64,000 nt of DNA from assembly GCA_903944345.1 (NCBI GenBank), contig CAJARJ010000013.1:58672-122671 (forward strand), read 5' to 3'. The notes below the pieces were generated by a model. That model ran no database searches. It saw only the letters and a list, made by a program, of their open reading frames with translations, and was not told the origin of the DNA. Shown here piece by piece: positions 29,642 to 58,900 of the stretch (its first letter is position 1; each line of letters begins with the position of its first letter). The stretch comes from Candidatus Omnitrophota bacterium. Its GTDB lineage: Bacteria > Omnitrophota > Gorgyraeia > Zapsychrales > Fredricksoniimonadaceae. The position numbers were made by a program, and so were the translations under genes.

Positions 29642-30430
29642 TTATTTTCCGAACAATCCGCCAAGGCCTTCCTTGAGCGCCTTCAGGCTGGTGCCAGCTT
29701 CTTTTTCCAGCTCCTTGCCCAGGCCTTTAAGAGCCTTGCCTGTGTCCAGCAATGATCCCTTGACAGCCTCCAGCGTGCTGCCGGTCACCTGCCCCAGCAC
29801 CGTCTGGATCAGATCCTCAGGAGTCATTCCTCCGGTGTCTTTGCCCAGTCCGGTCAGATGAATATCCGGCAAAGACATGGTCATGGTTTTGGAGGATATC
29901 CCCCGGAGATTAACATGCACCTTGACTCCCTTGATCAGCAAATCATCCAGCTGAATCTTCGGTGCGGGCTTGCCGGCGGATTCTTCTTTACCCTGACCGG
30001 AAACCCCGGACGCTTTGCCTGTCTTTCCGGCGGATGCATTCACATTATTCATAATGGTTCCAAGATTGCTCTCCCCGGTAAGTCCCCCGTCATATGTAAC
30101 TTCCAGCGAGTCAACAAGCACGGAACGCAGATGAATTTTCTCGGAAAAGACCGACATTACCTCCAGGCTGACAGCCGCACTGCCCAGACGCAAAGCCCCG
30201 GAACTGGTATAACCTTCAGGATTCCCCACATTCAAACCGTTGATGCTGGCCGAACCTCCCGGCAAAGACACCACAACCGATTCAAGCGTGACCGGCACCC
30301 GCATGATCTTCGGTCCGAGTGTTTCCACTCCGGCCTTGATGATCGGTCCGATAAAAAGACCTGCCGCAACGACCAGCGCGATAATCACAACAAAAATTCC
30401 GCCCACCCACACAAGTACAACTTTTTTCAT
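29642..30430 (-). CDS. Hypothetical membrane-anchored periplasmic protein (Gly/Ser/Lys-rich)
   Basis: N-terminal transmembrane segment MKKVVLVWVGGIFVVIIALVVAAG, then a low-complexity G/S/K-rich domain. Confidence 0.5.
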   Translation of the reverse strand: MKKVVLVWVGGIFVVIIALVVAAGLFIGPIIKAGVETLGPKIMRVPVTLESVVVSLPGGSASINGLNVGNPEGYTSSGALRLGSAAVSLEVMSVFSEKIHLRSVLVDSLEVTYDGGLTGESNLGTIMNNVNASAGKTGKASGVSGQGKEESAGKPAPKIQLDDLLIKGVKVHVNLRGISSKTMTMSLPDIHLTGLGKDTGGMTPEDLIQTVLGQVTGSTLEAVKGSLLDTGKALKGLGKELEKEAGTSLKALKEGLGGLFGK

Positions 30431-32844
30431 AAATGACTCTCCGTTTCCTGCTTGACTCTTTCAAACGACTGAGCATCTTTCCATGCTCCCCCTTCGTGCC
30501 AACGATCTCCTATAATTCTGATCTGCTCGCGAACAACCTCATAGTCACCGGCAAAATACGCTGAGAGGGCAAACCAGTTCCTGCGCTCGAGTGATTCCGG
30601 AAAACTTTTCAGAAGGTCCAGATAAGCCCGCTTCATTTCCTGCCAGACACCTGGTTCCCTGAAATAATCCTGATCATGTTCAAAGTTAAACTTCTCCCAA
30701 TGAGCATTTAGAATAATTTTGGGAACAAGCGTGCCTTCCGGAGCACTGGCCAGTGCCTCCCGGGCAAAACCAAACATACTTTTCCAGGACCCATGCCATT
30801 TGGGAGCCAGGAATATAAGTTTGGGATAATACGACATATATTCTCCCGGATCCGCTTTAACGGCTCGCTGAAATTGCTTGTCCAGAAGAACCCTGCGCAG
30901 GCTTCCCGAAGGCGGACAATCCGCAGGATAAATTGTTTGCAAGAACATCCTGTTAATCAAAACATGCCTGCCTGTAAAAGGGTCTTCTCTTGCCAGTTGT
31001 GTTCTATAGGCCTGAACATCTTCCGGCAGCAAATCCTTTCTGCGGCTGATGATTGATTCTATCAGGGCATTGTCCTGCAACAGCACATTAAGTTTATCCA
31101 AGGCCAAACCTTCTGCCGGGATATCAATGCCGTCTTTCTGCAAAACCCCCAAAAGCCTGTCTGCAGACATGTTTTGAATAAACTCTTCCGGACGGAACTC
31201 ATCCGGCAGATCCTTCCCTCTGAGAACAGTCATAAGTTCCGCCGGAACAAAAGGATCAGAAGGATCCCTTTCATACGCTTTTTCCAGATAATCCTCGGCC
31301 TGGCGCAAACGCTCCTGGTAAAGACCGGAGCCGCTGCTGGTCACAGCCTGAGAAAATCCGGTTCCTCTGGCCAGCCAGGCGTAATTAACATAAAAAGATC
31401 CCAAAAGCGCATTCGCAAAATGAGAATCCGGAACGGCAGTCACCCATTCCTGCAACTTGCCCAGCAATTCTTCGGCAGCATATTCAAAATCTTTTGGCTC
31501 TGCGAGGCTGATATAAGCATTATATAACAAGCTTTCCCCGTTTTTGTCCCGCTCCCGGCTTTTGAGCAGGCCATCAAGATATTTTTCCAACGCAAGGAAT
31601 TTCCTGTCCCGCAACATAATAACAGGATTATCCTGTTCCTGCGCACTTAAACCGGCATTAACCGAAGACAAATAGGCGCGAACCATTCCGGCATGTTCCC
31701 CGTCAGGGACTTGCCGCAGATATTCCTGAAAATGAATAACAGCGTTTGGGACATCCCCTTTCTCCTGATAAGCCCGTGCCAATGCATGGTGATAATTATA
31801 AGCCGTCGGTCTGGCCGCAACCGAACGTTGATAATAAGCGACTGCCTGATCATATTGCTGATGAATAAAATAGTACCTGCCCAGATTGTAAAGAGCCGAG
31901 GCATAGCCAGGCTCAAGATAAATCGCAGCTTGCAAATAGAAAACAGTCTTTTCCTCGTCGTTCTGCGATTCGTAAACATTGGATATGTTATTAAACAGGA
32001 CAGAATAATCCGGGCATAAAGCCAATGCCTGGAAATACACTGACAATCCCTGGCGAACATCATTCTCCCGGACCAGATTGTAAGCTCTGTCTTTTAAACC
32101 CTCTGCCTCACTTGTCAAGAGATCAACGATCCGGGTTATCTCCGTCAGCTTCTTTTGCAGAAAAGTATCATCGGTTGTTGAAATGATCTTTTTAAAAACC
32201 CGGCAAATACGAAGATCCCTGACAGTCCTCACGATCAGTTCTGTCTCATCCTCACCTGACAGCTCCCTGTGCGGATTGGCCAGGAAATTCGCAATACTCA
32301 TGATAACTTGTTCGTCACCGCTTGCACTAAAAGCGGCCAACGCCAGCCGTATCGCCTCCGGAGAATCAACTGGACGGAGCGTGTCGGATGAGGCCTCGGC
32401 AATAATGGCCTGTATCATCTTCTTCCTGCGAGAATCGACTTTCATCTCCTGACTTTTCAATTCTTCGAGAAAAGCCGCGTCTTGTCCTGCCAAGGTAGCG
32501 AAAAATCGGATGCCATAAATATCGGAACCGGACTGTTCTGCCTCTTTGTCTTTTACCAGAAAAAAAGCATCAAGAATTTTCGTTCTCGACCTTCTGTCCT
32601 TAGAACGATAATAATACGTCATCAACCATTCAGGAGAGTACGGCGGGAAACTCTTGAGGCGAATATTATTCCTGACCCGATCGCTCAACGGTAACTGTAC
32701 CGATACCGATTCAGACAAGACTTGAGCAACCACATCCCCTTGCGGCATTAACCGGTCATCCGCGACAACACGGCCGGATATTAAAAGCAAAAGAACAGAA
32801 AATATTGGGGAAACACACTTTATTGCTGTTCTGTTTTGATTCAT
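30427..32844 (-). CDS. Secreted TPR-repeat protein (about 806 aa)
   Basis: Signal peptide MNQNRTAIKCVSPIFSVLLLLISG; several TPR-like A/Y/L-spaced repeats (ALALCPDYS.., AIYLEPGYASALYNLGRYY, AVAYYQRSVAARP..); the ATG at 32844 is preferred over the track start at 32916. Confidence 0.65.
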   Translation of the reverse strand: MNQNRTAIKCVSPIFSVLLLLISGRVVADDRLMPQGDVVAQVLSESVSVQLPLSDRVRNNIRLKSFPPYSPEWLMTYYYRSKDRRSRTKILDAFFLVKDKEAEQSGSDIYGIRFFATLAGQDAAFLEELKSQEMKVDSRRKKMIQAIIAEASSDTLRPVDSPEAIRLALAAFSASGDEQVIMSIANFLANPHRELSGEDETELIVRTVRDLRICRVFKKIISTTDDTFLQKKLTEITRIVDLLTSEAEGLKDRAYNLVRENDVRQGLSVYFQALALCPDYSVLFNNISNVYESQNDEEKTVFYLQAAIYLEPGYASALYNLGRYYFIHQQYDQAVAYYQRSVAARPTAYNYHHALARAYQEKGDVPNAVIHFQEYLRQVPDGEHAGMVRAYLSSVNAGLSAQEQDNPVIMLRDRKFLALEKYLDGLLKSRERDKNGESLLYNAYISLAEPKDFEYAAEELLGKLQEWVTAVPDSHFANALLGSFYVNYAWLARGTGFSQAVTSSGSGLYQERLRQAEDYLEKAYERDPSDPFVPAELMTVLRGKDLPDEFRPEEFIQNMSADRLLGVLQKDGIDIPAEGLALDKLNVLLQDNALIESIISRRKDLLPEDVQAYRTQLAREDPFTGRHVLINRMFLQTIYPADCPPSGSLRRVLLDKQFQRAVKADPGEYMSYYPKLIFLAPKWHGSWKSMFGFAREALASAPEGTLVPKIILNAHWEKFNFEHDQDYFREPGVWQEMKRAYLDLLKSFPESLERRNWFALSAYFAGDYEVVREQIRIIGDRWHEGGAWKDAQSFERVKQETESHL

Positions 32845-32960
32845 AAACCAACCTTTCGTTGCCAGAAGTCTATCAAGCCCTTTACAATCGCGCAATGTGA
32901 TTTCCATGAAATCCATGAAATCAGTTGTCAGCTCGCGCCCTGCCGAACTAGAATGGGTTT

Positions 32961-34247
32961 ATGTTACATGTCTTTTTCCTGACCTTTTGCTGTTTATTGG
33001 CCTGCCTGCCGCCCTTGTCCGCGCAGGAAAACTCTTCTGCCCCACTGCCCCGGGCCGAAGAATTCTACAAGAAATACACCCCCGCACTCTATCAGATTGA
33101 AACGCTAAGCCGTCAGTCCCGCAAGAAATACGCCATCGGTTCGGCTTTCCAGGTGTCTGCAGACGGGCTTTTGGTCACCAATTATCATGTGATTGCTCCG
33201 GCTCTGCTCAATCCCCGCATGTTTGTCCTGCTGGCCAGACAGGCGGACAAGGCCGAATTCCCGGCCACAGTCCTGGCTGTGGACATCCTGCATGATTTGG
33301 CCATACTCCGTATTAATCCACCCCAGGAAACTTTTCTGCCCCTTGGATCCTCTGATATCAATGAGGGGAAAGTGATTTACTCTCTGGGGAATCCTCACGA
33401 CCTGGGTTTAACCATTAAAGAAGGACTGGCCAACGGTTTTGTTGACAAGTCCGTCTACCGTAAAATCCTTACCAGCCTGTCACTTAATCCCGGCATGAGC
33501 GGCGGCCCGACTATCAACGAAAATGGCCAGGTGATCGGGGTCAATGTCGCGGTAGCTGATATGGCCTTGAGTTTCCTGATCCCGGCCGATTACCTCGAAC
33601 CTCTGGTTACAAAAGCCCTCGGGCACAAGTCTGCGTCTCCATCTACCATGACAGCCGATATCGAACGCCAGCTGCTGCTTCAAGAACGCAAACGTTTTAT
33701 TCCACTGCTTAAAATGCCCTGGGAAAAACAGCAATTCGGGCACTTTCTGGTGCCGGCAGCGATCGCCAGCGATTTCTCCTGCTGGGGCAAACCCAATGAC
33801 GCCCCCGAAATCTGGATCAAATACCCGATGTTCTCCTGTTCCAGCCAGGACAGCATTTATCTTTCCCAACGCCTGAATGCTCATTCCGTTTTTTTTAACT
33901 ACTCCAGCCTGAGCAGTGTCTCTCCCGACCCTGTGCGCCTTTATTCGCTGGCCAATGACTATTTCAACAACTACCGGCTGGATCTGCAGGATGCCCAGTC
34001 AGAAGATGCCGAAAACTTCCGGTGCCGCACCGACCGCACCCTGGTCGCCGGACGCCCGTTTCTTGTCTCGACCTGCGCCAGGCGACTCAAACAAATGCCC
34101 CGGCTTTATGATGTCAACCTGTTGATGGGCTCACTGGCAGACCCTGAAGAAATCCTGATCGTCGAGCTGACACTGAGTGCTGTCAGCCGGGAAATGTCTC
34201 TGGGCATGGTCAAAAAGTTTCTGAAAGAAATCGAATGGCAAAAATAA
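32961..34247 (+). CDS. Secreted trypsin-like (S1 family) serine protease with a C-terminal extension
   Basis: Signal peptide; catalytic triad context VTNYHVI (His), ILHDLAIL (Asp), NPGMSGGP (Ser); 428 aa. Confidence 0.75.
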   Translation: MLHVFFLTFCCLLACLPPLSAQENSSAPLPRAEEFYKKYTPALYQIETLSRQSRKKYAIGSAFQVSADGLLVTNYHVIAPALLNPRMFVLLARQADKAEFPATVLAVDILHDLAILRINPPQETFLPLGSSDINEGKVIYSLGNPHDLGLTIKEGLANGFVDKSVYRKILTSLSLNPGMSGGPTINENGQVIGVNVAVADMALSFLIPADYLEPLVTKALGHKSASPSTMTADIERQLLLQERKRFIPLLKMPWEKQQFGHFLVPAAIASDFSCWGKPNDAPEIWIKYPMFSCSSQDSIYLSQRLNAHSVFFNYSSLSSVSPDPVRLYSLANDYFNNYRLDLQDAQSEDAENFRCRTDRTLVAGRPFLVSTCARRLKQMPRLYDVNLLMGSLADPEEILIVELTLSAVSREMSLGMVKKFLKEIEWQK

Positions 34248-35197
34248 TCCTCGAAATCCTTGCTGCCGCGGAACCCGGCCCCCGCTTCGTTACGGTCACT
34301 GGCCCCTGCGTAACAATCGGAAGGGGAATGAATAATGACATCATTATCCCTGACCCGTATATGAACCCCGAGCACCTCGTTCTGGATTTTACATCGGAGG
34401 AATGGTTTTGCCAGGATTCCGGAAGTCTTAACGGCACTCTGTTGGCCTGCGGCTGTTCGCGTGAAACCTGTGCGCAACGGATCAACGGTCGCACCCGTTT
34501 ATTCAGCGGATACACCCTCACGGCAGGACACACTTCTATCCGGGTATGGGATTCCCTGCATCCCGTTCCTCCAGCGGAACCTATCCGGGAAGACCACGAT
34601 AACGCCCGCAGCAAAACACACTCTTTACTGCCTGGCCTTATCTCGGCCGTGCTGCTTTATTACATTCTTTTTTTCTATCTCTTCTGCCTGGGAAATCCCA
34701 AGATCAATACCCCGTACATGGAATTCTTCTCGATCATCACGTTAATGCTGGCGGCGCTTGCGCTCTGGTCGGGCTTCTGGGCACTGATCACCCGTTTCTC
34801 TCGCCGTGAACACCGCTTTGCCAGGCACTTCCTTTTTGCCTGCCGTATCACCATCCTGTCCGTTATGACAGGGTTGATCCTGCGCCTGGTTGGATTCTAC
34901 CTTTGCGGCTATGTGGCCAATATGATCATGCAGCTTGTCGTTGCCGGTTCAGTGGCCGTCTTTACCTTGTATCATCATATGCGGCTGGCCACCCGCCTGC
35001 CGTCCCGCAAACGGCTTCTGGTTGCGTCTTTGATCATTATCCCTCTGCTCGGCGTCATTGTCATGATTGATGTCAGTCAGAAAACAGAGTTCAATCCTGA
35101 ACCAGGACACAATCTCCAGACTCTTTTTCTGCCCAAAGAATTTATCCCGGCTGATCCTCTTGATACCACACTCAAGCGGATGAACAGTATTTTCTGA
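34235..35197 (+). CDS. FHA-domain membrane protein
   Basis: FHA signature ..VTIGRGMNNDIIIPDPYMNPEHLVLDF..QDSGSLNGTLL (GR..SxxH..NGT); four C-terminal transmembrane helices; start overlaps the protease gene end by 13 bp. Confidence 0.75.
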   Translation: MAKIILEILAAAEPGPRFVTVTGPCVTIGRGMNNDIIIPDPYMNPEHLVLDFTSEEWFCQDSGSLNGTLLACGCSRETCAQRINGRTRLFSGYTLTAGHTSIRVWDSLHPVPPAEPIREDHDNARSKTHSLLPGLISAVLLYYILFFYLFCLGNPKINTPYMEFFSIITLMLAALALWSGFWALITRFSRREHRFARHFLFACRITILSVMTGLILRLVGFYLCGYVANMIMQLVVAGSVAVFTLYHHMRLATRLPSRKRLLVASLIIIPLLGVIVMIDVSQKTEFNPEPGHNLQTLFLPKEFIPADPLDTTLKRMNSIF

Positions 35198-35211: not shown

Positions 35212-35613
35212 TTATGACTTGTTGTATTCCGTCAAATACGGCCGATAACGCACAGGCACATGCTTTTTCTGCAGAGCCGGATTATGCCGCTCCCTGATCT
35301 CGATGGTGTCAAAATAGGTTTGCCACAAACCTTCAACCTCATCGGCCACACAAGGCTCCACCGGCTGCTGCCAGCTCGTCAGTCTCCATTTACCACCTGT
35401 ACCGCAAACAGCGGCACATCCCCGGCTTTCATCAATCAGAATCCAGCTCCTGCCGAGTAATCGCGGAGCAAAATAAGCGGCCAGCCCCGCAAGAATATCA
35501 AACGCAGGGGCTATGCGAGCGATCAGTTGACCGTCCTTTCCGGCTCTGAACCTGGTAAATCCCTGCCAACGGTGAAACTCCCAGGCTTCCTGTTCCACGC
35601 TTGTTTTTTGCAT
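35212..35613 (-). CDS. DUF4130-type putative DNA-repair protein (usual partner of the DNA-modification/repair radical-SAM protein)
   Basis: 133 aa immediately downstream of, and 2 bp from, the radical-SAM gene. Family membership is assigned from gene-pair context and size, not from a diagnostic motif. Confidence 0.55.
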   Translation of the reverse strand: MQKTSVEQEAWEFHRWQGFTRFRAGKDGQLIARIAPAFDILAGLAAYFAPRLLGRSWILIDESRGCAAVCGTGGKWRLTSWQQPVEPCVADEVEGLWQTYFDTIEIRERHNPALQKKHVPVRYRPYLTEYNKS

Positions 35614-35614
35614 A

Positions 35615-36880
35615 TCAAAGTTCTCCCGTTAACGCCGCGACTTGTTCTTCAAAATGATTTTGCGGTTCGAGAAACGTCAGTTGGCATTCGCTGCGCAATT
35701 GTTTGGGTAAAAGAATACGCCGCAACGCTGCTGTATCCCGAATATCGGGCGCCAGCGCCTGACCACCGACGGTCACAAAAAAACGGGCACGCTTGAGAGT
35801 GACTCCCAAACGTTCGAGGTCGCCGACTGCCAGTGTTTTATGCCGACGGGCCTGCACAATACGAGCGGCACTGCGCAGCCCTATTCCGGGAATCCTTAAC
35901 AGTTCTTCGTAAGGTGCGCTGGCGGCATCAACCGGAAAACAGTCTGGATGGCGCAAAGCCCAGGCGCATTTCGGATCCAGCTCCAGATCCAGCATGCCTG
36001 AAGAAAGGATCTCGTCTGTTGTAAAACCATATTGCCTCAACAACCAGTCCGCCTGATAAAGACGATGCTCCCGGAGCAAAGGCGGTGCCGCCTGCGGTGC
36101 ATCGGTATTGACCGGCACATACGCCGAATAATAAACACGCTTAAGTCCCCGGCCCCGGTAAAGTTCTGACGCCAGAGTAAGCACCTGCCGGTCATCATCC
36201 GGAGTTGCTCCGACAATAAGCTGGGTGCTTTGTCCGGTAGCGGTAAAACCGGCGGGCATGGACGACTGTTCCTTGCGGAGACGGGCAAACTCTTCGATAC
36301 GCCGGGCAGCCCGATCCATTGGAGCCAGAACCTGCGCCCAGTCCTTATCGGGGGCCATCAAGGCCAGGCTTTGCGGTGAAGCAAACTCGGTGTTAACACT
36401 GATGCGATCCGCCAGGCGCACAGCTTCGTCAACCAGTCCTCCGGAGACTCCCGGAATCAGCTTAAGATGAATGTATCCCCGAAAACGCCACTGCCCGCGC
36501 AAAAGGCGTACGGTGCGCAGCATCAGCTCCAGAGTATGATCCGGACTCCTGACCACTCCGGAGCTGAGAAAAAGTCCCTCAACATAATTGCGGCGATAAA
36601 ATTCACTGGCAAGGGCGGCCAGTTCTTCAGGGGTAAAGGCCGCACGCGGTGTCTCGTTAGACCGGCGGTTAAGGCAATAGCGGCAGTCATAAACACAATG
36701 ATTGGTTAACAGGACTTTGAGAAGGGAAATACAGCGCCCGTCAGCAGACCAACTGTGGCAAACTCCGGGCATTTGCCGGGCTTTACCGGAAGAGTCCCGG
36801 CGTACCGCTCCGCTGGAGGCGCAACTGACATCGTAACGCGCGGCTCCGGAAAGAATCCTGAGTTTTTCGGCCAACTGCAT
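35615..36880 (-). CDS. Putative DNA modification/repair radical SAM protein
   Basis: CVYDCRYC (Cx3Cx2C) radical-SAM cluster motif; about 420 aa with a characteristic C-terminal HhH-like region; the ATG at 36880 has a GGAG ribosome-binding site. Confidence 0.75.
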   Translation of the reverse strand: MQLAEKLRILSGAARYDVSCASSGAVRRDSSGKARQMPGVCHSWSADGRCISLLKVLLTNHCVYDCRYCLNRRSNETPRAAFTPEELAALASEFYRRNYVEGLFLSSGVVRSPDHTLELMLRTVRLLRGQWRFRGYIHLKLIPGVSGGLVDEAVRLADRISVNTEFASPQSLALMAPDKDWAQVLAPMDRAARRIEEFARLRKEQSSMPAGFTATGQSTQLIVGATPDDDRQVLTLASELYRGRGLKRVYYSAYVPVNTDAPQAAPPLLREHRLYQADWLLRQYGFTTDEILSSGMLDLELDPKCAWALRHPDCFPVDAASAPYEELLRIPGIGLRSAARIVQARRHKTLAVGDLERLGVTLKRARFFVTVGGQALAPDIRDTAALRRILLPKQLRSECQLTFLEPQNHFEEQVAALTGEL

Positions 36881-36949
36881 ATACCACTCCTTTGTGTGGT
36901 ATATGCTACACCCCGATAAAGAACGAGTCAAGAAAGAATTCGAACCAAA

Positions 36950-38896
36950 TCACGGACGACTCAACCGTCCCATAAAAATAATACGCCCGCTCCCGGATTC
37001 CTGGATCAGAAACATAAAAGGACGATCCGCCCTGAACAACTGGGCTGGCCGGGGCATGGCCCCGCCAAACATTCCGGCCGCAGTGGCCGCAGCGGCTTTG
37101 GTGCCTTGCTCGTTCACCTCAATAAAGGCTTTATGAATCACCTCGCCGATATAAATATCTTTCTGACCGGTCATACGCGAAAAATCGGCCTGCGGGCCAA
37201 AAGCGTCGGTTATCCCCATGGCCTGTAAGACCTCGCGCATCTTGTCGCTAAACGAAAAGACAAAACGCGGCAGATAGACATCCACTTTTTGCGGCATCAA
37301 TGACTGCTTCCATTGCGCAAGTTTCTCGAGACTCAACCCGGACTCAAATGCCTGCGCGGCCTCCGGCGCGGGCAGCAAAACCAGCATGGACAACTTTCCG
37401 CCGGCATACGGCAATTCGAGAATCTGCCCCTCAGGCAAGCGGGCATAATTCAACCTGGCCATATCGTTGCCCTCAAGAAACATCATCGGCACGCTCACAG
37501 TCCTGTTGTCATCAAGCCTGAAATCTTCATTGCGGGTTGAACGGACGTCGAAAGGATAGCGCCAATCACCTTTGAAATAAACTGCGTTAGTCAGGATCAG
37601 CCGGGTCACAGGCGTAATAAACCCTTCAGGGATCAGCTCCGTAATCAGTCCCCGGGTTTCTTTCCCGGCCCAGAGATTGATGGTCTTGCGCGACAGCCCG
37701 GGGTCAGAAGCAAAATCCACATTGAACGCCCCCGCACCATAAAACTCACCGACCAGCGACACGTAAGAAGAAAGCAGGGGTGCCTGTTGACTGGCCCACA
37801 AGGCATTGGCGGCATCAAGAATGTAACCTGGTTCATTCTCCTGCGAGGAGGAACGGACAAACCGCGCCGTTTCCAGACGTAGAAAAGGATCCGCGATAAA
37901 ATGACTGGCCGCAAGCAGCTGCCGGGCCGTATCTCCTGCCGCACCTTCATACACCATGCCCAGAACCGGAAGGATACTGGCCGGCGAATAAAATATATTT
38001 CCTTCGCGTTCGCGATACCTGGCATACAATTCCAGGGCAAAACGATTGTTGCCCTCAAGCGCTTGCTGACGGGCATCGGTCACCCAGGAGTTGCTCCAGA
38101 GGCCCTGTGACTCCAGAAACTGCTCGACCACGGTCCGGGCCGTCTTGCCCGAAATTTCCGGATCAGCCCCCGTCACATTGCAAGCGAATGTCCGCAACGT
38201 TTTTCCGGTTTCAAGAAAACCTACAAACCAGCCTATAGACTGCCCACTTTGCGGATCGGTTCCCGACCCCGTCTTGCCATAAAGCACCGCTCCATTCTCA
38301 GCCGTGCCCAGACGCATGATATCCTTGAGAATCGCGATATTATCAGCGGAAAAAGGCATCTCGCCATTTAACAGCCGGTTGAGCAAGGCCACCTGCTCCT
38401 GTGCGCAGATCAGAAGCGGTTTTGTTTCTGCCAAAGGAAGCCAGAAACTGTCCACCCCGGAAGAAATATCTCCCGAACCATAGCCCAGCTGACGAATATA
38501 ATCCTGCATACGTTCCGGCCCTGTCTGCCGGGCCAGCTCGCGAAAAGCCGGAACCGCAGACACGCGGAAAGCTTCGCGCAAACTCAGATCAGTATTCCAG
38601 GACGCAATCGGGCGCTTGACGCCATCCCAGCGGTACCATGGCTCGTCAGGATTCTTGAGCAACCCCAGTTCCAGCCCGATAAGAGTGTTATAAATCTTGA
38701 AGGTCGAACAGGGCGGCAGCCTGCGTGCCGCAAGCGACGGATCAAGGTTAATCTCTGTACCGGTGGAAAGATCATAAACAACCAAAGCAGTCTGATAATT
38801 TTCTGCCAGAAAGAAAACCGGCTCCCCTTCCGCCTGACACGCGACAAGCGACAGGATCAAAAAAGAAAAAGCCAGTAAAATTTTTCGGCAGAACAT
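36950..38896 (-). CDS. Secreted fusion protein: class-D beta-lactamase/BlaR-sensor-like penicillin-binding domain plus serpin domain
   Basis: Signal peptide with lipobox-like LVAC; PCSTFKIYNTL (SxxK) and YGKTGSG (KTG) in the first 270 aa. A full serpin follows: NAVYFKGDWRYPF, hinge EVNEQGTKAAAATAAG, FRADRPFMFLIQESGSGRIIFMGRLSRP. Confidence 0.8.
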   Translation of the reverse strand: MFCRKILLAFSFLILSLVACQAEGEPVFFLAENYQTALVVYDLSTGTEINLDPSLAARRLPPCSTFKIYNTLIGLELGLLKNPDEPWYRWDGVKRPIASWNTDLSLREAFRVSAVPAFRELARQTGPERMQDYIRQLGYGSGDISSGVDSFWLPLAETKPLLICAQEQVALLNRLLNGEMPFSADNIAILKDIMRLGTAENGAVLYGKTGSGTDPQSGQSIGWFVGFLETGKTLRTFACNVTGADPEISGKTARTVVEQFLESQGLWSNSWVTDARQQALEGNNRFALELYARYREREGNIFYSPASILPVLGMVYEGAAGDTARQLLAASHFIADPFLRLETARFVRSSSQENEPGYILDAANALWASQQAPLLSSYVSLVGEFYGAGAFNVDFASDPGLSRKTINLWAGKETRGLITELIPEGFITPVTRLILTNAVYFKGDWRYPFDVRSTRNEDFRLDDNRTVSVPMMFLEGNDMARLNYARLPEGQILELPYAGGKLSMLVLLPAPEAAQAFESGLSLEKLAQWKQSLMPQKVDVYLPRFVFSFSDKMREVLQAMGITDAFGPQADFSRMTGQKDIYIGEVIHKAFIEVNEQGTKAAAATAAGMFGGAMPRPAQLFRADRPFMFLIQESGSGRIIFMGRLSRP

Positions 38897-38926
38897 AACT
38901 TACTCCTCCATTATTAAACGAACCTT

Positions 38927-40378
38927 TTACTGCAGACGGGAGGCAGTTCGCAAATAAACCGCCGCAAACAAAAGAAGGAAAACGGACAAGAATATGACAC
39001 CTCCATATCCGGTTTCGCTCATCAGATGCAGATAATCATTGTGCGCCTGGCGCAAATACTCGATCTCAAAATTAAAAGTACGATACCTGGCAAAATTTGT
39101 TCCGAAAGTGTTTACCCCTGTCCCGAAAAAACTGAAGTCCTTAAAAACTTTCCATGCCCCTTTATAGAAATCCAGACGCACCCCGATAGGCCCTTCCATC
39201 TTTACAATCTTATCGATACTCAGCAAACGAAAGCGTGCCAGAAACTCTTCCGGTCCCAGCCAGACCACCATAACTCCGGCCAATAACAAAACTGTTGTCA
39301 GAATGCCGGCAAAACGCTTTTTTTTGCTGGAACGGGCTGCCGCGCGCAGGACAAGCGCGAAGAAAATGATCTGACTCAAAAGAAAGCTCATGATCCCGCC
39401 CCGCGAGGTCGACATAAAAATGGTGCTGATCATTACCGCCGACATAAGAATATAACGCAGGGTGCGATTAGCCTCGGGAGTCGAAAACCACAAGAGACGT
39501 TCGGACAAGCCTTTGCAGTGAGAGAATGACGTATGCATGATGCTGGCCACCGCCATTCCGGTGGCCGTCGCGCTACAGAGCTCCATAAAACCGGCAAAGT
39601 GATCGTAATTATAATACGGTCCGACCGGATTGGGGGCCTTCATTCCCAGCCAGAAAATACGTCCGTTGTAGCTGAACTTCTGAACAATGGCAAACAGAGC
39701 CACCAGAAAACCGAACATGATGACAAAATCGATCATCCGGCGAAAAAAGCTATGGTCATAATCCTTTCGTCCGGCACTGCCTGTCCCCAACCCCAGCAAA
39801 ACAACAAAATATATCCCGTTGGCCGCTATATGCAGGTTGAAATCATAGATACTGTGAAACAAAAGGGACAGGACTCCTGACAGGCATCCCAAACGCAGAT
39901 ATTCGGTCTTGACCAGACTGAGCGGATGCGGTGCGGTCAAGCGCTCGTCGGCAGAAGCAACCGGAGCCAAACGCAACAGAATAGTCACAAAAAAGAGTCC
40001 ATAGGTCATAAACTGGACAAGACCCATGATAGTGTCGTTTGAATAGACCGACAAGGTATCCCGTCCACCAACAGGAATACCTCCCGGCAGTGTCCTGGCA
40101 TAAAGATCAAACGTTGCCGGAGAAAGCAGTTTGATCTGCTCATATGGCAAAGGCAGCAGCTGAAACAGAACAAACGCCAGGAGAAAAAGCCCCAGCCACA
40201 CCCAGAACGAACGCAAGACCGGCACGAATGCCTGCGGGCGGGAGAATACGACCAGATTAAAAACGATCAAGGAAAGTAAAGCCAGAAAAAGCAAAGGAAG
40301 AAACTGGACGCTCCCATACATGAGCGGAGCAGCGGCAAGTCCTGCAAACAGAAAAAAATCAGCCAAACGCAAAAGCAT
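38927..40378 (-). CDS. O-antigen ligase-like (Wzy_C) polytopic membrane protein
   Basis: About 10 transmembrane segments; AHNDYLHLMSETGYGG matches the O-antigen ligase/Wzy_C loop motif; start overlaps the Wzc stop (ATGA). Confidence 0.75.
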   Translation of the reverse strand: MLLRLADFFLFAGLAAAPLMYGSVQFLPLLFLALLSLIVFNLVVFSRPQAFVPVLRSFWVWLGLFLLAFVLFQLLPLPYEQIKLLSPATFDLYARTLPGGIPVGGRDTLSVYSNDTIMGLVQFMTYGLFFVTILLRLAPVASADERLTAPHPLSLVKTEYLRLGCLSGVLSLLFHSIYDFNLHIAANGIYFVVLLGLGTGSAGRKDYDHSFFRRMIDFVIMFGFLVALFAIVQKFSYNGRIFWLGMKAPNPVGPYYNYDHFAGFMELCSATATGMAVASIMHTSFSHCKGLSERLLWFSTPEANRTLRYILMSAVMISTIFMSTSRGGIMSFLLSQIIFFALVLRAAARSSKKKRFAGILTTVLLLAGVMVVWLGPEEFLARFRLLSIDKIVKMEGPIGVRLDFYKGAWKVFKDFSFFGTGVNTFGTNFARYRTFNFEIEYLRQAHNDYLHLMSETGYGGVIFLSVFLLLFAAVYLRTASRLQ

Positions 40379-46656: not shown

Positions 46657-48681
46657 ATGATCCAGCGCTTATATCACTCAAGATGGTTTAAAAAAACAAC
46701 TTGCGCCGTCCTGGCGACATTTGTCACGCTCATCCCGGCACAATCAGGCTACACACAGGTGGTTGCCCCCATGCCGGCACCGGGCCAGATGACGCGAGTA
46801 ACCGGAAAATTTGAGCCTGCCCGCATGGCAGGAATGCGCATAGATCCCCGGAACCCGTTCAATTTCTATTTTCTCATAAACAAAGGCGAACAGTCTTTAA
46901 CACTTGAGGCCCAAAAGGCTGAATACAACAAACTCATAAAATATTTTCTGGCTTCCCTGACCATTCCGAACCGGGATATGTGGGTTAACCTGTCTCCGTC
47001 GGAGTCCGACCGCATAATCCCGGATAACTTTGCCCGGACTGAAACAGGGCACGCCCTTCTGGCACAAGATTATCTTTTAAAACAATTCACGTCTTCATTA
47101 ATGCACCCGGAAGACCCTGTCGGCAAAGAATTCTGGACAAAGATCTACGCGAAAGCGTTCGAAAAATTCGGCACAACCGAGATTCCGATAGATACCTTCA
47201 ACAAAGTGTGGATCACCGCCGACAGGGCGGATATCTATCAAAAAGACGATACCGCTCTTCTGGTCGACAGCCATCTGAAAGTGATGCTGCAGCAGGATTT
47301 CATGGCCATCAGACAGAACAAGGAACAATACGCAGTCGCGGCCGACACCCTGGCGCAAGAGAGCGACGGGGCACGCCAAATGACATCGGATCTTGTGCGG
47401 GAAGTGATCATTCCGGTCATGGAAAACGAGATAAACACCGGCAGCAACTTTGCCCAGGTTCGCCAGATATACAATTCCATGATCCTGGCAACCTGGTACA
47501 AGAAAACTCTCCGGAAAAGCCTGCTCGGACAGATCTACGCCGACAAAAGCAAAGCAGCCGGGATTGAAACAAGTGACCCGCAAGCCAGAGAGAAAATTTA
47601 TCAACAGTATCTCGAAGCGTTCCAACTGGGCGCCTTCAATTATATAAAAAATGACACAAATCCCTCAACACAGGAAACATTACCCAGAAAATATTTTTCG
47701 GGAGGAGTTGCCCTCTTGCCAGACGCAGCCATGATCAAGGTCGTCGATGAACGTTCAGCCAGAAATCAATTTCTTGGTCTGAGGAATACTGTAGAAGTTG
47801 TTACCACCCTGTTCACCAAAACCAGCCGACTCTTCCCTCTTTTACTGCTCCCCGCCAACAGCTTGACTTACGCATCAACAACTCTCCCGTCTACCGAACC
47901 GCCTGACACAGATCTCATCGCGACAACCCTCGGAATGATCCATTCACAGACCGCAGAATTCATGAATCTGCTGAACAACGAAGCAACCGGCTGGGCGCTG
48001 CTGGGAATATTCCTCGTTTCCGTGCCCCTGATCCTGTACCATGCCCACAAACTCAGGATCAAGATCGCACTTGCTGTCCAGATTATCGATACCAGGACAG
48101 ACTTGTTGTCCAGGGAAGACCTTTTAGCAATACTAAAAGAGGTATACCGGTCAGATGCAACCACAAGCTCGGATCTGGACATTCAGTTTATTACCAATAG
48201 CATGCAAAAGCAGAATATCGATATTCAAACCGGTCTCGCGGCATTAATATCGTTCTTCAGCCTGGATCAGGAACACCGCTTGCTTGAGGTCAATGCAACT
48301 GCCTACATAGCCAACATAAAAACAAACGATCTCACATCGAAAAGAAACAGATTGAATCCTCTCCGTCACGCGGCTGAGATTTCCGACATTGAAAGAAGAA
48401 TACACCAGAGCGAACAATCTTATATGCAACTGGAAAAAGCCATAGACGCATTAACACCCCCCGATTCTGCCGCCCTGCAGGCGCCTACCGGCGGTATTGA
48501 TCTGGATGAAAAATATCTGACCATGAATATCCGTGTGGACGGAAAAGGAATGCCTTTGCCGGTGTCCATGCAGGATCCGGCGATGCTTGATATCGACGGG
48601 CTCTCACCGTTCATTCGTGAGATTGAACCTGTGACCCCCTTGAATATGCCGGTATTCCTGGAACTGACCCAAAGCCCGTAA
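46657..48681 (+). CDS. Family paralog P2 (674 aa): signal peptide, conserved N-domain, hydrophobic segment, C-terminal GGIDL module
   Basis: ..GMRIDPRNPFNFYF..WVNLSPSESDRIIPDNF..LLAQDYLLKQ..FGTTEIPIDTFNKVWITADRADIY..LKVMLQQD..REVIIPVMENEIN..NSMILATWYK..PRKYFSGG..; transmembrane-like GWALLGIFLVSVPLILY; ends ..APTGGIDLDEKY..PLPV.. Confidence 0.8.
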   Translation: MIQRLYHSRWFKKTTCAVLATFVTLIPAQSGYTQVVAPMPAPGQMTRVTGKFEPARMAGMRIDPRNPFNFYFLINKGEQSLTLEAQKAEYNKLIKYFLASLTIPNRDMWVNLSPSESDRIIPDNFARTETGHALLAQDYLLKQFTSSLMHPEDPVGKEFWTKIYAKAFEKFGTTEIPIDTFNKVWITADRADIYQKDDTALLVDSHLKVMLQQDFMAIRQNKEQYAVAADTLAQESDGARQMTSDLVREVIIPVMENEINTGSNFAQVRQIYNSMILATWYKKTLRKSLLGQIYADKSKAAGIETSDPQAREKIYQQYLEAFQLGAFNYIKNDTNPSTQETLPRKYFSGGVALLPDAAMIKVVDERSARNQFLGLRNTVEVVTTLFTKTSRLFPLLLLPANSLTYASTTLPSTEPPDTDLIATTLGMIHSQTAEFMNLLNNEATGWALLGIFLVSVPLILYHAHKLRIKIALAVQIIDTRTDLLSREDLLAILKEVYRSDATTSSDLDIQFITNSMQKQNIDIQTGLAALISFFSLDQEHRLLEVNATAYIANIKTNDLTSKRNRLNPLRHAAEISDIERRIHQSEQSYMQLEKAIDALTPPDSAALQAPTGGIDLDEKYLTMNIRVDGKGMPLPVSMQDPAMLDIDGLSPFIREIEPVTPLNMPVFLELTQSP

Positions 48682-58100: not shown

Positions 58101-58900
58101 TTATATCCCGGACCAATTTCAGCCGAAAACTGCGGATAAGCCGCCGAAGCCCTGTAATCGTCCTCAAGCAAAACCTTCAGACGAGTTTCCGTCACAACTG
58201 CAGCAGCACCCGGCGCGGCGACGTCCCGGGAAAAGTTTTCAAAAATACGCGCGCTGTCAGAAGTTATCCAGACCTTGTTGAAGGTATCAACCGGCAAATC
58301 GGTTGTGCCAAACTTTTCGTGCAAATCAGCATAGACACCGGCCCAAAAAGCTTTCCCCTGGCTGTCGTCAGGATGAACCAACTCGGCGGCCACGCGCTTG
58401 AGCAAATAATCCATAACCAGCAAGTCCTGCCCCATGCCTGTTCGCGCGAGGTCCGGGGTCGTCACCCGGTCTTTTTCATAGGGGGAAAGATTGATCCACA
58501 AATCCTGGGGAGGAATAACCAGCGAAGAAAGAAAGTACCTGATCTGACGAAGGGAGTCCTGGCTGTTATCAATCTCGGAACTCCCCCAGGCAGCATTGCG
58601 CTCGAAAATGAAATCCATCCGTAAAGGATTGCGGGGGTCAACCCTGACACCCTTCATGATCACGCCGGAGGGGGCTGTAATATCTTCAAGCAGAGGATCG
58701 CCGGGCAACGCAAGTGGAAGAACAGATTGTGCGCTAACAGGAACTACGGAGCCCAAAAAAAGGATGGCGCACAAAAATAACCGGAAGAAAATTCCGAAAG
58801 GTGAAAGCATCTGGCCAGAACAATTTAGAAGTGACATGGTTTTTGACAAATCCGGGTTAAAACTACAGGAAAGTATAATATATTTTAAGCTTTCCTGCAC
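55145..58900 (-). CDS. Family paralog P4 (about 1,230-1,251 aa): signal peptide, conserved N-domain, long unique central region, C-terminal GGIDLN module
   Basis: ..GVRVDPRNPLRMDF..WINLSPYEKDRVTTPDL..LLVMDYLLKR..FGTTDLPVDTFNKVWITSD..LKVLLEDD..REVVIPALEREVN..LVLATWYK..PRKYMSGG..; ends ..LTPGGIDLNPDN..IVPVIVGV... The track ORF starts at a GTG at 58900; ATGs at 58837 and 58810 are alternatives (the signal peptide follows 58810). Confidence 0.8.
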   Translation of the reverse strand: MQESLKYIILSCSFNPDLSKTMSLLNCSGQMLSPFGIFFRLFLCAILFLGSVVPVSAQSVLPLALPGDPLLEDITAPSGVIMKGVRVDPRNPLRMDFIFERNAAWGSSEIDNSQDSLRQIRYFLSSLVIPPQDLWINLSPYEKDRVTTPDLARTGMGQDLLVMDYLLKRVAAELVHPDDSQGKAFWAGVYADLHEKFGTTDLPVDTFNKVWITSDSARIFENFSRDVAAPGAAAVVTETRLKVLLEDDYRASAAYPQFSAEIGPGYNNPARTAALRAMREVVIPALEREVNESPRFARVREIYRCLVLATWYKKKLYDSVVARVYSDSRKTQGMDSFGRVSAETVWTAYMDSFRQGVFNLIREETDPWNGDTIPRKYMSGGVILNGDAAMDLDLPADTRDYYRVSSDLQVQTDAAQGIKMQGGLHYNVADFTRDSAIFLPKHKGQIKKLRPQLEKIENAIVKGKSFEFAGLVVEFLKDLDVVEFRQALVMRMGHLFSKVNMEEWLGLEKMLKVFRKEDLSSGLLLKFQEAFGAQDKTAAVGNKLLEILAEGGRSKNQQIIQEARRGLLFLRLFAAFVAEPLPLKDLIFIEDLGEDSWIPNPFRRGQLEEELSDIIRSSRWQDLLQVLANIREQDIPQPRHKKQFVDVERRVADLLFEAGYYNVDLFLQSYARTEKIKKTIEVSRPVAPSPLQRPLIERMIRHYEVMIKHARPGTSLKDVLRKVVRQYKNDLAFTDITDAQVDRKILQAALRERFGLWMNTWVTRFLRESSGFSNGEPPADKLAFILGEAEILQLEPEDTRLLDAVISLARSGVNVTPERVFLASKAQGLTFEDIDRWRPEGSMGSRFLAFVEIPWQDEESAAIEEGVLISEGLDGILASGLQYEGNYADVVSTLARSAQAPPESVRRFLDSEGNGEAYFNALSETRTIVKNGRLAREGYDKLLPHMSRQMQIEQSVLQGYWKLWGVTPERYLKQEQPLRIKGYDVAVVDGGWVNGDYLQQPRERRVIEGLINDFLEGKIDSNQNGLPHIERLQSKGQSISVYVVLSGMVSSATLNELGYEGTGILNRLVTDGLMVKLREKDLWVFQDDGTAEAFGARLDSFFSGHSDEISDHPALRAVLERAYGRRRLVVVAAGPIADFKQSANSNSMPPEFKEYLRGYRNNNEALARARQVVVGADHAQSALTPGGIDLNPDNIRLLIERAAGSGYDLASASVFELSEETMQQLRQHATGIVPVIVGVTAQAALTDFVRF

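What the first reader, a model, noticed from the sequence alone, without database searches (positions are those of the whole stretch)
36950..38896. Secreted fusion of a class-D beta-lactamase/BlaR-sensor-like domain with a complete serpin
One ORF joins two domains not normally found together. The first is an OXA-type penicillin-recognising domain (STFK active-site motif, KTG box). The second is a full serpin with hinge and reactive-centre loop (EVNEQGTKAAAATAAG...) and the C-terminal FRADRPFMFLI signature. Bacterial serpins are sporadic. A serpin fused to an acyl-enzyme-forming penicillin-binding fold suggests a protease inhibitor targeted or regulated by a beta-lactam/peptidoglycan-fragment-binding module. 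Both domains could also act as mechanism-based traps. The gene sits next to the EPS locus.
Basis: partly seen in the sequence, partly recalled or inferred. Interest (0 to 1): 0.75.

Follow-up and report, generated by a model that had tools for sequence, protein, structure and literature searches.

The report
Secreted beta-lactamase fused to a serpin
An uncultivated Omnitrophota bacterium makes one secreted protein that joins an intact antibiotic-destroying enzyme (class D beta-lactamase) to an intact protease-trapping inhibitor (serpin); the combination is real, evolutionarily maintained and extremely rare, but most likely it is just two independent defensive activities exported together.

Summary
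ORF 36950-38896 (-) encodes a 648-aa protein: signal peptide, complete class D (OXA-type) beta-lactamase domain, ~6-residue linker, complete inhibitory-type serpin. All class D catalytic motifs are present and invariant against 120 stand-alone relatives. The N-domain model superposes on OXA enzymes (TM ~0.87), not on BlaR1 sensors. The serpin keeps the inhibitory hinge and 88 of 93 conserved positions. By count the scissile site is Met-Phe-Gly-Gly|Ala. The fusion is not an artefact: the identical protein occurs on at least 16 contigs from several samples, and two orthologues (85% and 77% identity) keep the reading frame with dN/dS ~0.1-0.15 in both halves. It is very rare: one 50%-identity cluster among 1.84 billion representatives. 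JGI auto-annotates it, but I found no paper on it. The host is Candidatus Omnitrophota. The gene is the last one of a Wza/Wzc/Wzy polysaccharide-export operon. Best reading: a periplasmic bifunctional shield, beta-lactamase plus protease inhibitor, with the domains acting independently. A beta-lactam-gated serpin is not excluded but has no specific support. Verdict: new variant of known kinds, moderate interest.

The parts
36950..38896 (-). Whole fusion gene: 648 codons plus TGA stop at 36950-36952
   Evidence: ORF list; Pfam two-domain hit; identical protein present in public collections
38904..38909 (-). Shine-Dalgarno GGAGGA, 7 nt upstream of the ATG; the Wzy_C stop TAA is at 38927-38929, so the intergenic gap is 30 nt (operon-style junction)
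   Evidence: Sequence read, checked; the same ~30-nt spacing is seen in the orthologous loci L001-L004
38831..38896 (-). Signal peptide, residues 1-22 (MFCRKILLAFSFLILSLVACQA|EGE), probably cleaved by signal peptidase I
   Evidence: The closest stand-alone OXA relatives carry the same '...SVCRA|QE' ending; lipobox-like matches occur in only 4 of 111 relatives and not in orthologue P0002. AF2 models residues 2-22 as a helix followed by a low-confidence segment. No SignalP-type tool was run.
38099..38824 (-). Class D (OXA-type) beta-lactamase domain, residues 25-266
   Evidence: NCBIfam bla_class_D_main E 5e-57; PDB FUS-1/OXA-85 E 1e-47; AF2 pLDDT 94.4 with TM 0.87-0.89 to FUS-1, OXA-48 and OXA-10
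38696..38707 (-). Motif I, S64-T-F-K67 (catalytic Ser and the Lys that is carboxylated in class D enzymes)
   Evidence: Aligned to OXA-10 STFK; invariant in 121 sequences
38552..38560 (-). Motif II, S113-A-V115 (the SxV form of class D enzymes)
38474..38482 (-). Motif III, Y139-G-S141 (YGN in clinical OXAs; YGS is the consensus of this environmental clade)
   Evidence: consensus 'GYGSxDIS'; Y and G are invariant
38438..38446 (-). F151-W152-L153, the omega-loop Trp equivalent to OXA-10 W154
   Evidence: invariant
38267..38275 (-). Motif IV, K208-T-G210
   Evidence: invariant
38090..38107 (-). Inter-domain linker QGLWSN (residues 264-269), between the last OXA helix (250-263) and serpin helix A (270-294)
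   Evidence: AF2 secondary structure of the full-length model, pTM 0.76
36953..38089 (-). Serpin domain, residues 270-648; it has no signal peptide of its own
   Evidence: PF00079 positions 2-370 of 370, E 1.5e-106; conserpin and chloropin E ~1e-72; 88 of 93 conserved positions kept
37037..37111 (-). Hinge and reactive-centre loop, P17 E596 to P8' L620: EQGTKAAAATAAGMFGG|AMPRPAQL
   Evidence: In-register, gap-free alignment with 71 stand-alone serpins. Inhibitory hinge consensus ExGTEAAAA (PMC8233489). Residues 611-622 are disordered in the AF2 model.
37058..37063 (-). Predicted scissile pair P1-P1' = G612-A613 (P4-P1 = M-F-G-G)
   Evidence: Count of 17 residues from P17. The experimentally mapped P1 Arg of chloropin (8GXV; PMC10090351) sits at the same count; in the gapped HMMER alignment it falls opposite G611 because the fusion loop is one residue shorter. 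The site is conserved in all three orthologues. It is predicted, not measured.
37016..37036 (-). F621-RADRPF627, the conserved C-terminal serpin signature

Best explanation
The gene encodes a periplasmic, Sec-exported bifunctional defence protein of a Candidatus Omnitrophota bacterium. A typical Omnitrophota stand-alone class D beta-lactamase gene, with its signal peptide, became fused in frame to a serpin gene that lost its own leader. The N-domain hydrolyses beta-lactams by the normal class D mechanism (Ser64 acylation, carboxylated Lys67 as general base). The C-domain is a canonical suicide-substrate serpin. A serine (or cysteine) protease attacks the exposed loop near Met-Phe-Gly-Gly|Ala, is trapped as an acyl-enzyme, and is dragged across the molecule when the loop inserts into sheet A. 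The two activities are chemically independent. What the fusion gives is one export signal, one-to-one stoichiometry and co-localisation in the cell envelope, expressed as the last gene of a capsule/EPS export operon, so that the whole forms an 'envelope shield' set. Shown here: the architecture, intact motifs and folds, purifying selection, rarity and context. Inferred: the export route, both activities, domain independence, co-transcription and the target protease class.
For: Both halves are complete and unremarkable members of their families. All class D catalytic residues are invariant against 120 stand-alone relatives. The N-domain model (pLDDT 94.4) matches OXA enzymes at TM ~0.87 and 1.6-2.0 A. 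The serpin keeps 88 of 93 highly conserved positions and an inhibitory hinge with P14 Thr and P12-P9 Ala4, with loop length in register with the experimentally inhibitory chloropin. dN/dS is 0.09-0.15 for the OXA half and 0.10-0.14 for the serpin half, at dS 0.7-1.3, across three lineages. The signal peptide is the same type as in the closest stand-alone OXA genes. The closest relatives of each half are stand-alone secreted proteins. The same OXA clade is also found fused to unrelated modules (a PF00144 class-C-like domain in P0022, a cupin in P0071), as expected for an autonomous catalytic module. A strong RBS lies 30 nt after Wzy_C and no terminator-like site lies in that gap. The context is conserved in L001-L004 and L006-L008.
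Against: No activity of either domain has been measured. The linker is only ~6 residues and the full-length pTM is 0.76, which suggests a fixed inter-domain geometry and leaves room for coupling. Twelve of 121 otherwise conserved OXA positions are changed in all three fusion proteins, clustering at residues 234-256 next to the junction. The hinge P13 Glu, 100% conserved in 71 relatives, is Lys in all three. These could be interface or regulatory adaptations. A Gly-Gly P2-P1 is unusual (P1 Gly in 4 of 71 relatives), so the target is unclear. The NCBIfam class D score (192.8) is below the 250-bit equivalog cut-off.
Confidence: 0.6

Rival explanations
1. Ligand-gated serpin, a BlaR1-like logic with an inhibitor output. 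The OXA-like domain acts as a sensor that is acylated by a beta-lactam (or binds a peptidoglycan fragment). Through the short rigid junction this changes the serpin's loop exposure or latency, so that protease inhibition in the envelope is switched on or off.
For: Class D folds are used as sensors in BlaR1/MecR1 (established knowledge), and the domain has a secondary hit to blaR1_generic (144.9 bits). The linker is ~6 residues and pTM is 0.76. Fusion-specific substitutions cluster near the junction, and P13 is Glu-to-Lys in the hinge of all three orthologues.
Against: The domain scores higher to enzymes than to sensors. All top-50 structural matches are beta-lactamases. Motif II is the enzyme-type SxV. 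Every residue invariant in 120 stand-alone enzymes is kept. Nearest relatives at 58-63% identity are ordinary stand-alone enzymes. The BlaR1 transmembrane/M56 protease part is absent. No precedent for allosteric control of a serpin by a fused enzyme domain was found in the literature searched.
Confidence: 0.08
2. The serpin half controls an endogenous envelope protease rather than foreign ones. The candidate is the secreted HtrA-like Trypsin_2 protease encoded two genes away (32961-34247, +). The beta-lactamase half is a passenger or gives independent resistance.
For: The Trypsin_2 protein has a signal peptide and an intact His/Asp/Ser triad. It lies within 3 kb in every orthologous contig long enough to include that position. 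HtrA-type proteases prefer small aliphatic P1 residues (established knowledge), which is compatible with a small-residue loop.
Against: The synteny is seen only among close relatives (77-100% identity), so it carries little weight. The protease is on the opposite strand, in a separate unit coupled to an FHA/Yip1 gene, with a radical-SAM/DUF4130 pair in between. The protease's 90% cluster has 12 members against 2 for the fusion's, which hints that it may occur without the fusion. No interaction was tested.
Confidence: 0.15
3. The OXA-like domain no longer works as a beta-lactamase. It serves as a carrier, anchor or chaperone module (supplying the signal peptide, stabilising the metastable serpin, or binding cell-wall material), or it has a different esterase/amidase substrate.
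For: The score is below the NCBIfam equivalog cut-off (192.8 vs 250). The physiological substrates of environmental class D enzymes are unknown. Twelve conserved positions are changed specifically in the fusion lineage. N-terminal extensions are common in prokaryotic serpins.
Against: A mere carrier would not be expected to keep every catalytic residue at dN/dS ~0.1 over dS ~1. None of the twelve changes touches a catalytic motif.
Confidence: 0.12
4. Artefact: two adjacent genes merged by a sequencing or assembly error or a recent stop-codon loss, with no functional fusion protein.
For: None beyond the rarity of the architecture.
Against: The identical 648-aa protein occurs on at least 16 contigs from independent samples and assemblers. 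Orthologues at 85% and 77% identity keep the uninterrupted frame. The linker is conserved in length. The serpin half has no leader or start context of its own. Both halves are under purifying selection.
Confidence: 0.01

Closest known systems
Stand-alone environmental class D beta-lactamases of Candidatus Omnitrophota (e.g. P0290, P0296, P0316; solved relatives FUS-1/OXA-85 4IED, OXA-10, OXA-48)
   Same: Same fold (TM 0.87-0.89), same signal-peptide type, and all catalytic motifs identical; 58-63% identity to the Omnitrophota enzymes and ~40% to FUS-1.
   Different: Those are ~262-aa single-domain proteins. Here the C-terminal helix runs after ~6 residues into a 379-aa serpin. Twelve otherwise conserved positions are changed in the fusion lineage.
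Prokaryotic inhibitory serpins, e.g. chloropin (Chlorobium limicola, PDB 8GXV) and miropin (Tannerella forsythia)
   Same: Full serpin fold, inhibitory hinge, RCL length in register and the FxADxPF signature; E 2e-72 to chloropin.
   Different: Chloropin uses P1 Arg, whereas here P3-P1 is Phe-Gly-Gly. P13 is Lys instead of the invariant Glu. There is no leader of its own, and it is fused behind an enzyme. The best stand-alone serpin is only 47% identical.
BlaR1/MecR1 beta-lactam sensor-transducers
   Same: A class D-type penicillin-recognising domain covalently linked to a module of proteolytic signalling. Here the partner is a protease inhibitor instead of a protease.
   Different: BlaR1 has an N-terminal transmembrane M56 zinc-protease region with the sensor at the C-terminus. 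Here there is no membrane or M56 part, the OXA domain is N-terminal, it resembles enzymes more than sensors, and the partner is a serpin.
Other fusions of the same OXA clade (P0022: OXA + PF00144 class-C-like serine hydrolase; P0071: cupin + OXA)
   Same: The same OXA subfamily (52-57% identity) is joined to a second module in one secreted polypeptide.
   Different: The partners are different. Each was seen on only one or two contigs, and none contains a serpin.

Membership tests
Class D (OXA-type) beta-lactamase | Penicillin-recognising alpha/beta fold of class D enzymes | tested here: met
   AF2 N-domain pLDDT 94.4, pTM 0.91. Foldseek TM 0.87-0.89 and rmsd 1.6-2.0 A to FUS-1, OXA-48 and OXA-10.
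Class D (OXA-type) beta-lactamase | Motif I S-x-x-K (nucleophile Ser and the carboxylatable Lys) | tested here: met
   S64-T-F-K67 aligned to OXA-10 STFK; invariant in 121 sequences.
Class D (OXA-type) beta-lactamase | Motif II S-x-V, motif IV K-T/S-G, and the omega-loop Trp (OXA-10 W154) | tested here: met
   S113-A-V115, K208-T-G210 and W152 are all invariant in the clade.
Class D (OXA-type) beta-lactamase | Motif III Y/F-G-N | tested here: inconclusive
   The motif is Y139-G-S141. Tyr and Gly are invariant. Ser instead of Asn is the consensus of this whole environmental clade. The functional consequence is unknown.
Class D (OXA-type) beta-lactamase | Score above NCBIfam bla_class_D_main equivalog cut-off (250 bits) | tested here: not met
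   192.8 bits. It is the best-scoring family and covers profile positions 5-234 of 236, but it is below the curated naming threshold.
Class D (OXA-type) beta-lactamase | Hydrolysis of beta-lactams with CO2-dependent carboxy-lysine | not testable with these tools
   Needs an enzyme assay.
Serpin (inhibitory) | Complete serpin fold | tested here: met
   PF00079 positions 2-370 of 370, 357 bits. Foldseek TMt 0.8-0.92 to many serpins. 88 of 93 conserved positions kept.
Serpin (inhibitory) | Inhibitory hinge P17-P9 ExGTEAAAA (small P12-P9, P14 Thr/Ser) | tested here: met
   E596-Q-G-T-K-A-A-A-A604. P17 Glu, P15 Gly, P14 Thr and P12-P9 Ala4 are present. P13 is Lys instead of Glu, a deviation at a position I take from general serpin structure to be solvent-facing.
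Serpin (inhibitory) | RCL length of 17 residues from P17 to P1, exposed loop | tested here: met
   Gap-free register with 71 relatives up to P1; one residue shorter than chloropin in the HMMER alignment. The loop at 611-622 has low pLDDT. The AF2 model shows the hinge as an inserted strand, which I take to be a modelling preference.
Serpin (inhibitory) | Formation of an SDS-stable covalent complex with a target protease | not testable with these tools
   Needs biochemistry.
BlaR1/MecR1 sensor-transducer | N-terminal polytopic membrane region with an M56 zinc-protease domain | tested here: not met
   Only a single N-terminal signal peptide is present and there is no Peptidase_M56 hit.
BlaR1/MecR1 sensor-transducer | Sensor-type penicillin-binding domain (NCBIfam blaR1_generic cut-off 400 bits) | tested here: not met
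   144.9 bits, below both the cut-off and the class D enzyme score. No sensor domain appears among the top 50 structural matches.

The most novel reading that the evidence does not exclude
The protein is a beta-lactam-gated (or cell-wall-fragment-gated) protease inhibitor. Acylation of the OXA-type domain is transmitted through the 6-residue rigid junction to the serpin's hinge or breach region, where the lineage-specific P13 Glu-to-Lys change sits. This switches loop insertion or latency. It would be a soluble periplasmic counterpart of BlaR1 in which the output is protease inhibition instead of proteolysis.
Probability: 0.07. Interest if true: 0.85.

Novelty: new variant of a known kind. Interest (0 to 1): 0.45.

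Why it matters
If both halves are active, this would be, as far as my searches reach, the first natural protein that combines antibiotic inactivation and protease trapping in one exported polypeptide. That would be a compact example of how uncultivated, possibly host-dependent nanobacteria (Omnitrophota) armour their envelope. It would also add an environmental class D beta-lactamase lineage with recurrent domain fusions to the resistome. The tight junction also makes it a convenient natural scaffold for asking whether serpin metastability can be influenced by a covalently attached enzyme domain. It does not by itself resolve a long-standing question, and it is confined to one narrow lineage.

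Tried and rejected
1. Artefact hypothesis: rejected on multiple independent contigs, orthologues and dN/dS.

2. 'The architecture is common': rejected within the reach of the searches. The word-indexed search of 5.8 billion proteins gave only P0001 and P0002. Exhaustive phmmer over 1.84 billion representatives gave only P0002's cluster. The next hits are tandem serpins, an ankyrin-serpin, or serpins with unannotated N-terminal extensions. A local phmmer with the N-domain against all 289 fetched proteins found no other OXA+serpin. Limitation: only the best 150 hits (276 bits or more) are listed, so very remote PBP-fold+serpin fusions are not excluded.

3. Rosetta-stone adjacency: there is no serpin within 6 kb on either side of the OXA gene in any of the seven OXA-relative loci checked (L005, L009-L014).

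4. GTDB representative genomes: the fusion is absent; only an OXA-only Omnitrophota hit was found.

5. Metagenome scan anchored on the adjacent radical-SAM gene, meant to find sister genomes and the pre-fusion state: it failed. The anchor is too conserved, the 80 loci are ~50% identical, and none carries an OXA or serpin.

6. Lipoprotein reading of 'LVAC': judged unlikely. The lipobox is absent in P0002, and the 'VCRA|' ending is an SPase I site in the closest stand-alone relatives.

7. R616 as P1 (HMMER aligned P-R with conserpin's P2-P1): rejected in favour of G612. The 71-sequence alignment is gap-free up to P1, and a 21-residue P-side would be too long for the trap mechanism as I know it from the serpin literature. 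The conservative R616K swap is noted.

8. PEP-CTERM/exosortase identity of the EPS locus: only sub-threshold hits, so it is described generically as Wza/Wzc/Wzy-type.

10. Literature: no paper on OXA-serpin fusions.
Full report
OBSERVATION. The window contains a 648-codon ORF on the minus strand at exactly 36950..38896. It starts at an ATG preceded by GGAGGA 7 nt upstream, and only 30 nt after the stop codon of the preceding Wzy_C gene. Pfam finds two non-overlapping domains. One is a penicillin-binding/transpeptidase-type domain (PF00905, residues 54-261, E 3e-24). The other is a full-length serpin (PF00079, residues 282-648, profile positions 2-370 of 370, E 1.5e-106). NCBIfam places the first domain best in bla_class_D_main (192.8 bits over profile positions 5-234 of 236), ahead of blaR1_generic (144.9 bits).

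IS THE FUSION REAL? The identical 648-aa sequence is in NCBI, JGI/IMG, ENA and Logan. It occurs on at least 16 contigs, the longest 318 kb, from several samples and assemblers. Two orthologues, P0001 (85% identity, 648 aa) and P0002 (77%, 647 aa), keep the same uninterrupted frame and the same linker length. Nei-Gojobori estimates give dN/dS of 0.09-0.15 for the OXA half and 0.10-0.14 for the serpin half, at dS 0.67-1.3. So the single polypeptide has been maintained by purifying selection in at least three species-level lineages. An assembly or frameshift artefact is excluded.

THE N-TERMINAL HALF. Residues 1-22 form a signal peptide. Its ending, 'VAC-Q-A|E' ('CRA|E' in the orthologues), is the same as the 'SVCRA|QE' signal-peptidase I site of the closest stand-alone relatives. 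The lipobox-like 'LVAC' of the window copy is not conserved in P0002, and lipobox-like strings occur in only 4 of 111 relatives, so a soluble periplasmic protein is the more likely product. This is an inference, because no signal-peptide predictor was available.

Residues 25-266 are 58-63% identical to a large set of ~262-aa stand-alone class D beta-lactamases, many from Candidatus Omnitrophota MAGs. They are ~40% identical to the crystallised FUS-1/OXA-85. In a 121-sequence alignment the following are invariant: S64-T-F-K67, S113-x-V115, Y139-G140, F151-W152-L153, K208-T-G210 and W223. 'YGS' instead of 'YGN' is the consensus of the clade, not a defect of this protein. An AlphaFold2 model of the domain (pLDDT 94.4, pTM 0.91) superposes on FUS-1, OXA-48, OXA-10, BSU-2 and YbxI at TM 0.85-0.89 and 1.6-2.2 A. 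All 50 best PDB matches are beta-lactamases, and none is a BlaR1/MecR1 sensor.

Two qualifications apply. The NCBIfam score is below the 250-bit equivalog cut-off. And 12 of 121 positions that are at least 90% conserved in stand-alone enzymes are changed in all three fusion proteins. None of these is catalytic, and they cluster at residues 234-256 next to the junction.

THE C-TERMINAL HALF. Residues 270-648 align end to end with conserpin and with chloropin (8GXV) at E ~1e-72. Chloropin is an experimentally inhibitory bacterial serpin whose P1 Arg was mapped by mass spectrometry (PMC10090351). The hinge is E596-Q-G-T-K-A-A-A-A, which matches the inhibitory consensus ExGTEAAAA (PMC8233489) except that P13 is Lys. 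That Glu is 100% conserved in 71 stand-alone relatives and is replaced in all three fusion orthologues. This is unexplained.

The loop aligns without gaps with those 71 serpins up to the scissile position. Counting 17 residues from P17 gives P4-P1|P1' = Met-Phe-Gly-Gly|Ala, conserved as G-[ML]-F-G-G-[AS]-M-P-[RK]-P. P1 Gly is unusual: 4 of 71 relatives have it, against Thr 39, Lys 8 and Arg 6. I therefore predict a protease that accepts small or hydrophobic residues (elastase-, subtilisin- or HtrA-like), and I cannot be more specific. Miropin shows that bacterial serpins can use several bonds in the loop (title of Ksiazek et al. 2015, cited).

88 of 93 highly conserved serpin positions are kept. 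The best stand-alone serpin is only 47% identical, and the named relatives come from many phyla, so the source of the serpin half is unknown.

THE WHOLE PROTEIN. The full-length AlphaFold2 model has mean pLDDT 88.8 and pTM 0.76. The last OXA helix (250-263) is followed after six residues (QGLWSN) by a long serpin helix A (270-294). Only residues 20-23 and 611-622 (the loop) are below pLDDT 50. The serpin part is modelled with the hinge as a strand and resembles latent or cleaved serpins most closely. I regard this as a modelling preference for the relaxed state, not as evidence about the native state. Coordinates and PAE were not available, so I could not examine an inter-domain interface. The short linker and the pTM value are compatible with a fixed arrangement.

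RARITY. Among 5.8 billion clustered proteins, only P0001 and P0002 (plus the query's own cluster) contain both domains. An exhaustive phmmer over 1.84 billion 50%-identity representatives returns a single full-length representative (P0002, 1135 bits). The next hits (387 bits or less) are tandem serpins, an ankyrin-serpin, or serpins with unannotated N-terminal extensions. A local screen of all fetched proteins with the N-domain found no further case. The fusion is absent from the GTDB species representatives. Only the best 150 hits are listed, so a very remote analogue below ~276 bits cannot be excluded. JGI's pipeline names the protein 'serine protease inhibitor/beta-lactamase class D'. Full-text searches found no paper that describes such a fusion, and a superfamily-wide serpin phylogeny does not mention fusions.

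CONTEXT AND HOST. FabF in the window is 75-80% identical to proteins of Candidatus Omnitrophica MAGs, the same phylum as the closest OXA relatives. So the host is an uncultivated Omnitrophota bacterium, and the OXA half is native to the phylum.

The upstream genes on the same strand form a Wza/Wzc/Wzy-type polysaccharide export cluster: a SurA_N-like protein, a BBP2_2 outer-membrane barrel, Poly_export/SLBB, a Wzz-GNVR tyrosine autokinase and Wzy_C. The cluster has only sub-threshold similarity to PEP-CTERM-associated models. The fusion gene follows Wzy_C after 30 nt with its own strong RBS. No promoter- or terminator-like site falls in that gap, so co-transcription is likely. This is inferred.

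Downstream lie a radical-SAM/DUF4130 pair (TIGR03916; true start ATG 36880, with its own RBS and a promoter-like TTGACT-17-TAGCAT). On the other strand there is a secreted HtrA-like Trypsin_2 protease, translationally coupled to an FHA/Yip1 membrane protein. This order is conserved in all orthologous contigs, but these are close relatives, so the synteny says little about function. Stand-alone OXA relatives are never next to a serpin. An attempt to find the pre-fusion state with a metagenome scan anchored on the radical-SAM gene returned only distant loci.

MECHANISM. The best-supported reading (confidence 0.6) is a periplasmic bifunctional shield. An ordinary class D beta-lactamase and an ordinary inhibitory serpin act independently. 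They are joined so that one leader exports both in equal amounts into the envelope, and they are expressed with the capsule/EPS export genes. That the same OXA clade is also found fused to a class-C-like serine hydrolase (P0022) and to a cupin (P0071) fits an autonomous catalytic module that tolerates fusion.

The rivals are as follows:
- An endogenous target for the serpin, namely the neighbouring HtrA-like protease (0.15). This is not exclusive with the main reading.
- An OXA half with a non-beta-lactamase or carrier role (0.12).
- A ligand-gated serpin analogous to BlaR1 (0.08).
- An artefact (0.01).

The gated-serpin idea is the most novel reading not excluded. What speaks for it is only the tight junction, the junction-proximal substitutions and the P13 Lys. 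What speaks against it is that the domain is enzyme-like by every test applied.

VERDICT. Its functional interpretation (sensor-regulated or targeted inhibitor, or double trap) is not supported by specific evidence. This is a new variant of known kinds: a previously undescribed, lineage-restricted, selectively maintained combination of two well-understood domains. Interest is moderate (0.45). It is surprising as an architecture and easily testable, but it probably reflects co-export of two independent defences.

Noticed in passing
L014:6001-7926 (P0022); P0071: The same OXA clade (52-57% identity) occurs in other secreted fusions. P0022 is signal peptide + OXA-like + PF00144 class-C-like serine hydrolase (641 aa). 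P0071 is signal peptide + cupin + OXA-like (381 aa). P0032, P0080 and P0113 look like upstream mis-called starts or further fusions. This clade seems unusually prone to fusion.
   Followed up: partly
window 38708-38710 (C63) and 38180-38182 (C239), minus strand: A Cys immediately before the catalytic Ser ('PCSTFK') and a Cys in 'FACN' on the strand after KTG are invariant in all 121 members of this class D clade. The positions recall the C69-C238 disulfide of class A carbapenemases (from memory). A possible active-site disulfide was not examined structurally.
   Followed up: no
window 32961-35197 (+): A secreted HtrA-like Trypsin_2 protease (428 aa; intact triad; no PDZ domain; ~230-aa C-terminal region with no family) overlaps by 13 nt the start of an FHA + Yip1-like multi-pass membrane protein (320 aa). 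This conserved two-gene module has unknown function.
   Followed up: partly
window 30427-32916 (-): An 829-aa TPR/DUF4034 protein lies between the Trypsin_2 gene and the DUF748 gene in the window. It is absent at that position in the orthologous contigs L001 and L003, where only ~170 nt separate the two genes. This is a lineage-specific insertion.
   Followed up: partly
window 55145-58900 (-), 46657-48681 (+), 48788-50977 (+), 59798-62167 (+): Four large ORFs (1251, 674, 729 and 789 aa) have no Pfam or NCBIfam match at all.
   Followed up: no
window 37097-37099 (K600, minus strand): The serpin hinge P13 is Lys in all three fusion orthologues, although Glu is 100% conserved at this position in 71 stand-alone relatives. 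This charge reversal is specific to the fused lineage and is unexplained.
   Followed up: partly
Proteins P0143-P0289 (exhaustive search hits): Many prokaryotic serpins are multi-module. Examples are tandem double and triple serpins (P0143, P0144, P0146, P0160, P0197), an ankyrin-repeat-serpin (P0188), and numerous serpins with 150-280-aa N-terminal extensions that have no Pfam match (P0147, P0148, P0151, P0157).
   Followed up: partly
window 35212-36880 (-): A radical-SAM (TIGR03916, 533 bits) plus DUF4130 pair, the known 'putative DNA modification/repair' couple, lies directly downstream of the fusion gene. The mechanical ORF list over-extends the radical-SAM gene to a TTG at 36931. The likely true start is the ATG at 36880, which has an AAGGAG RBS.
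   Followed up: yes
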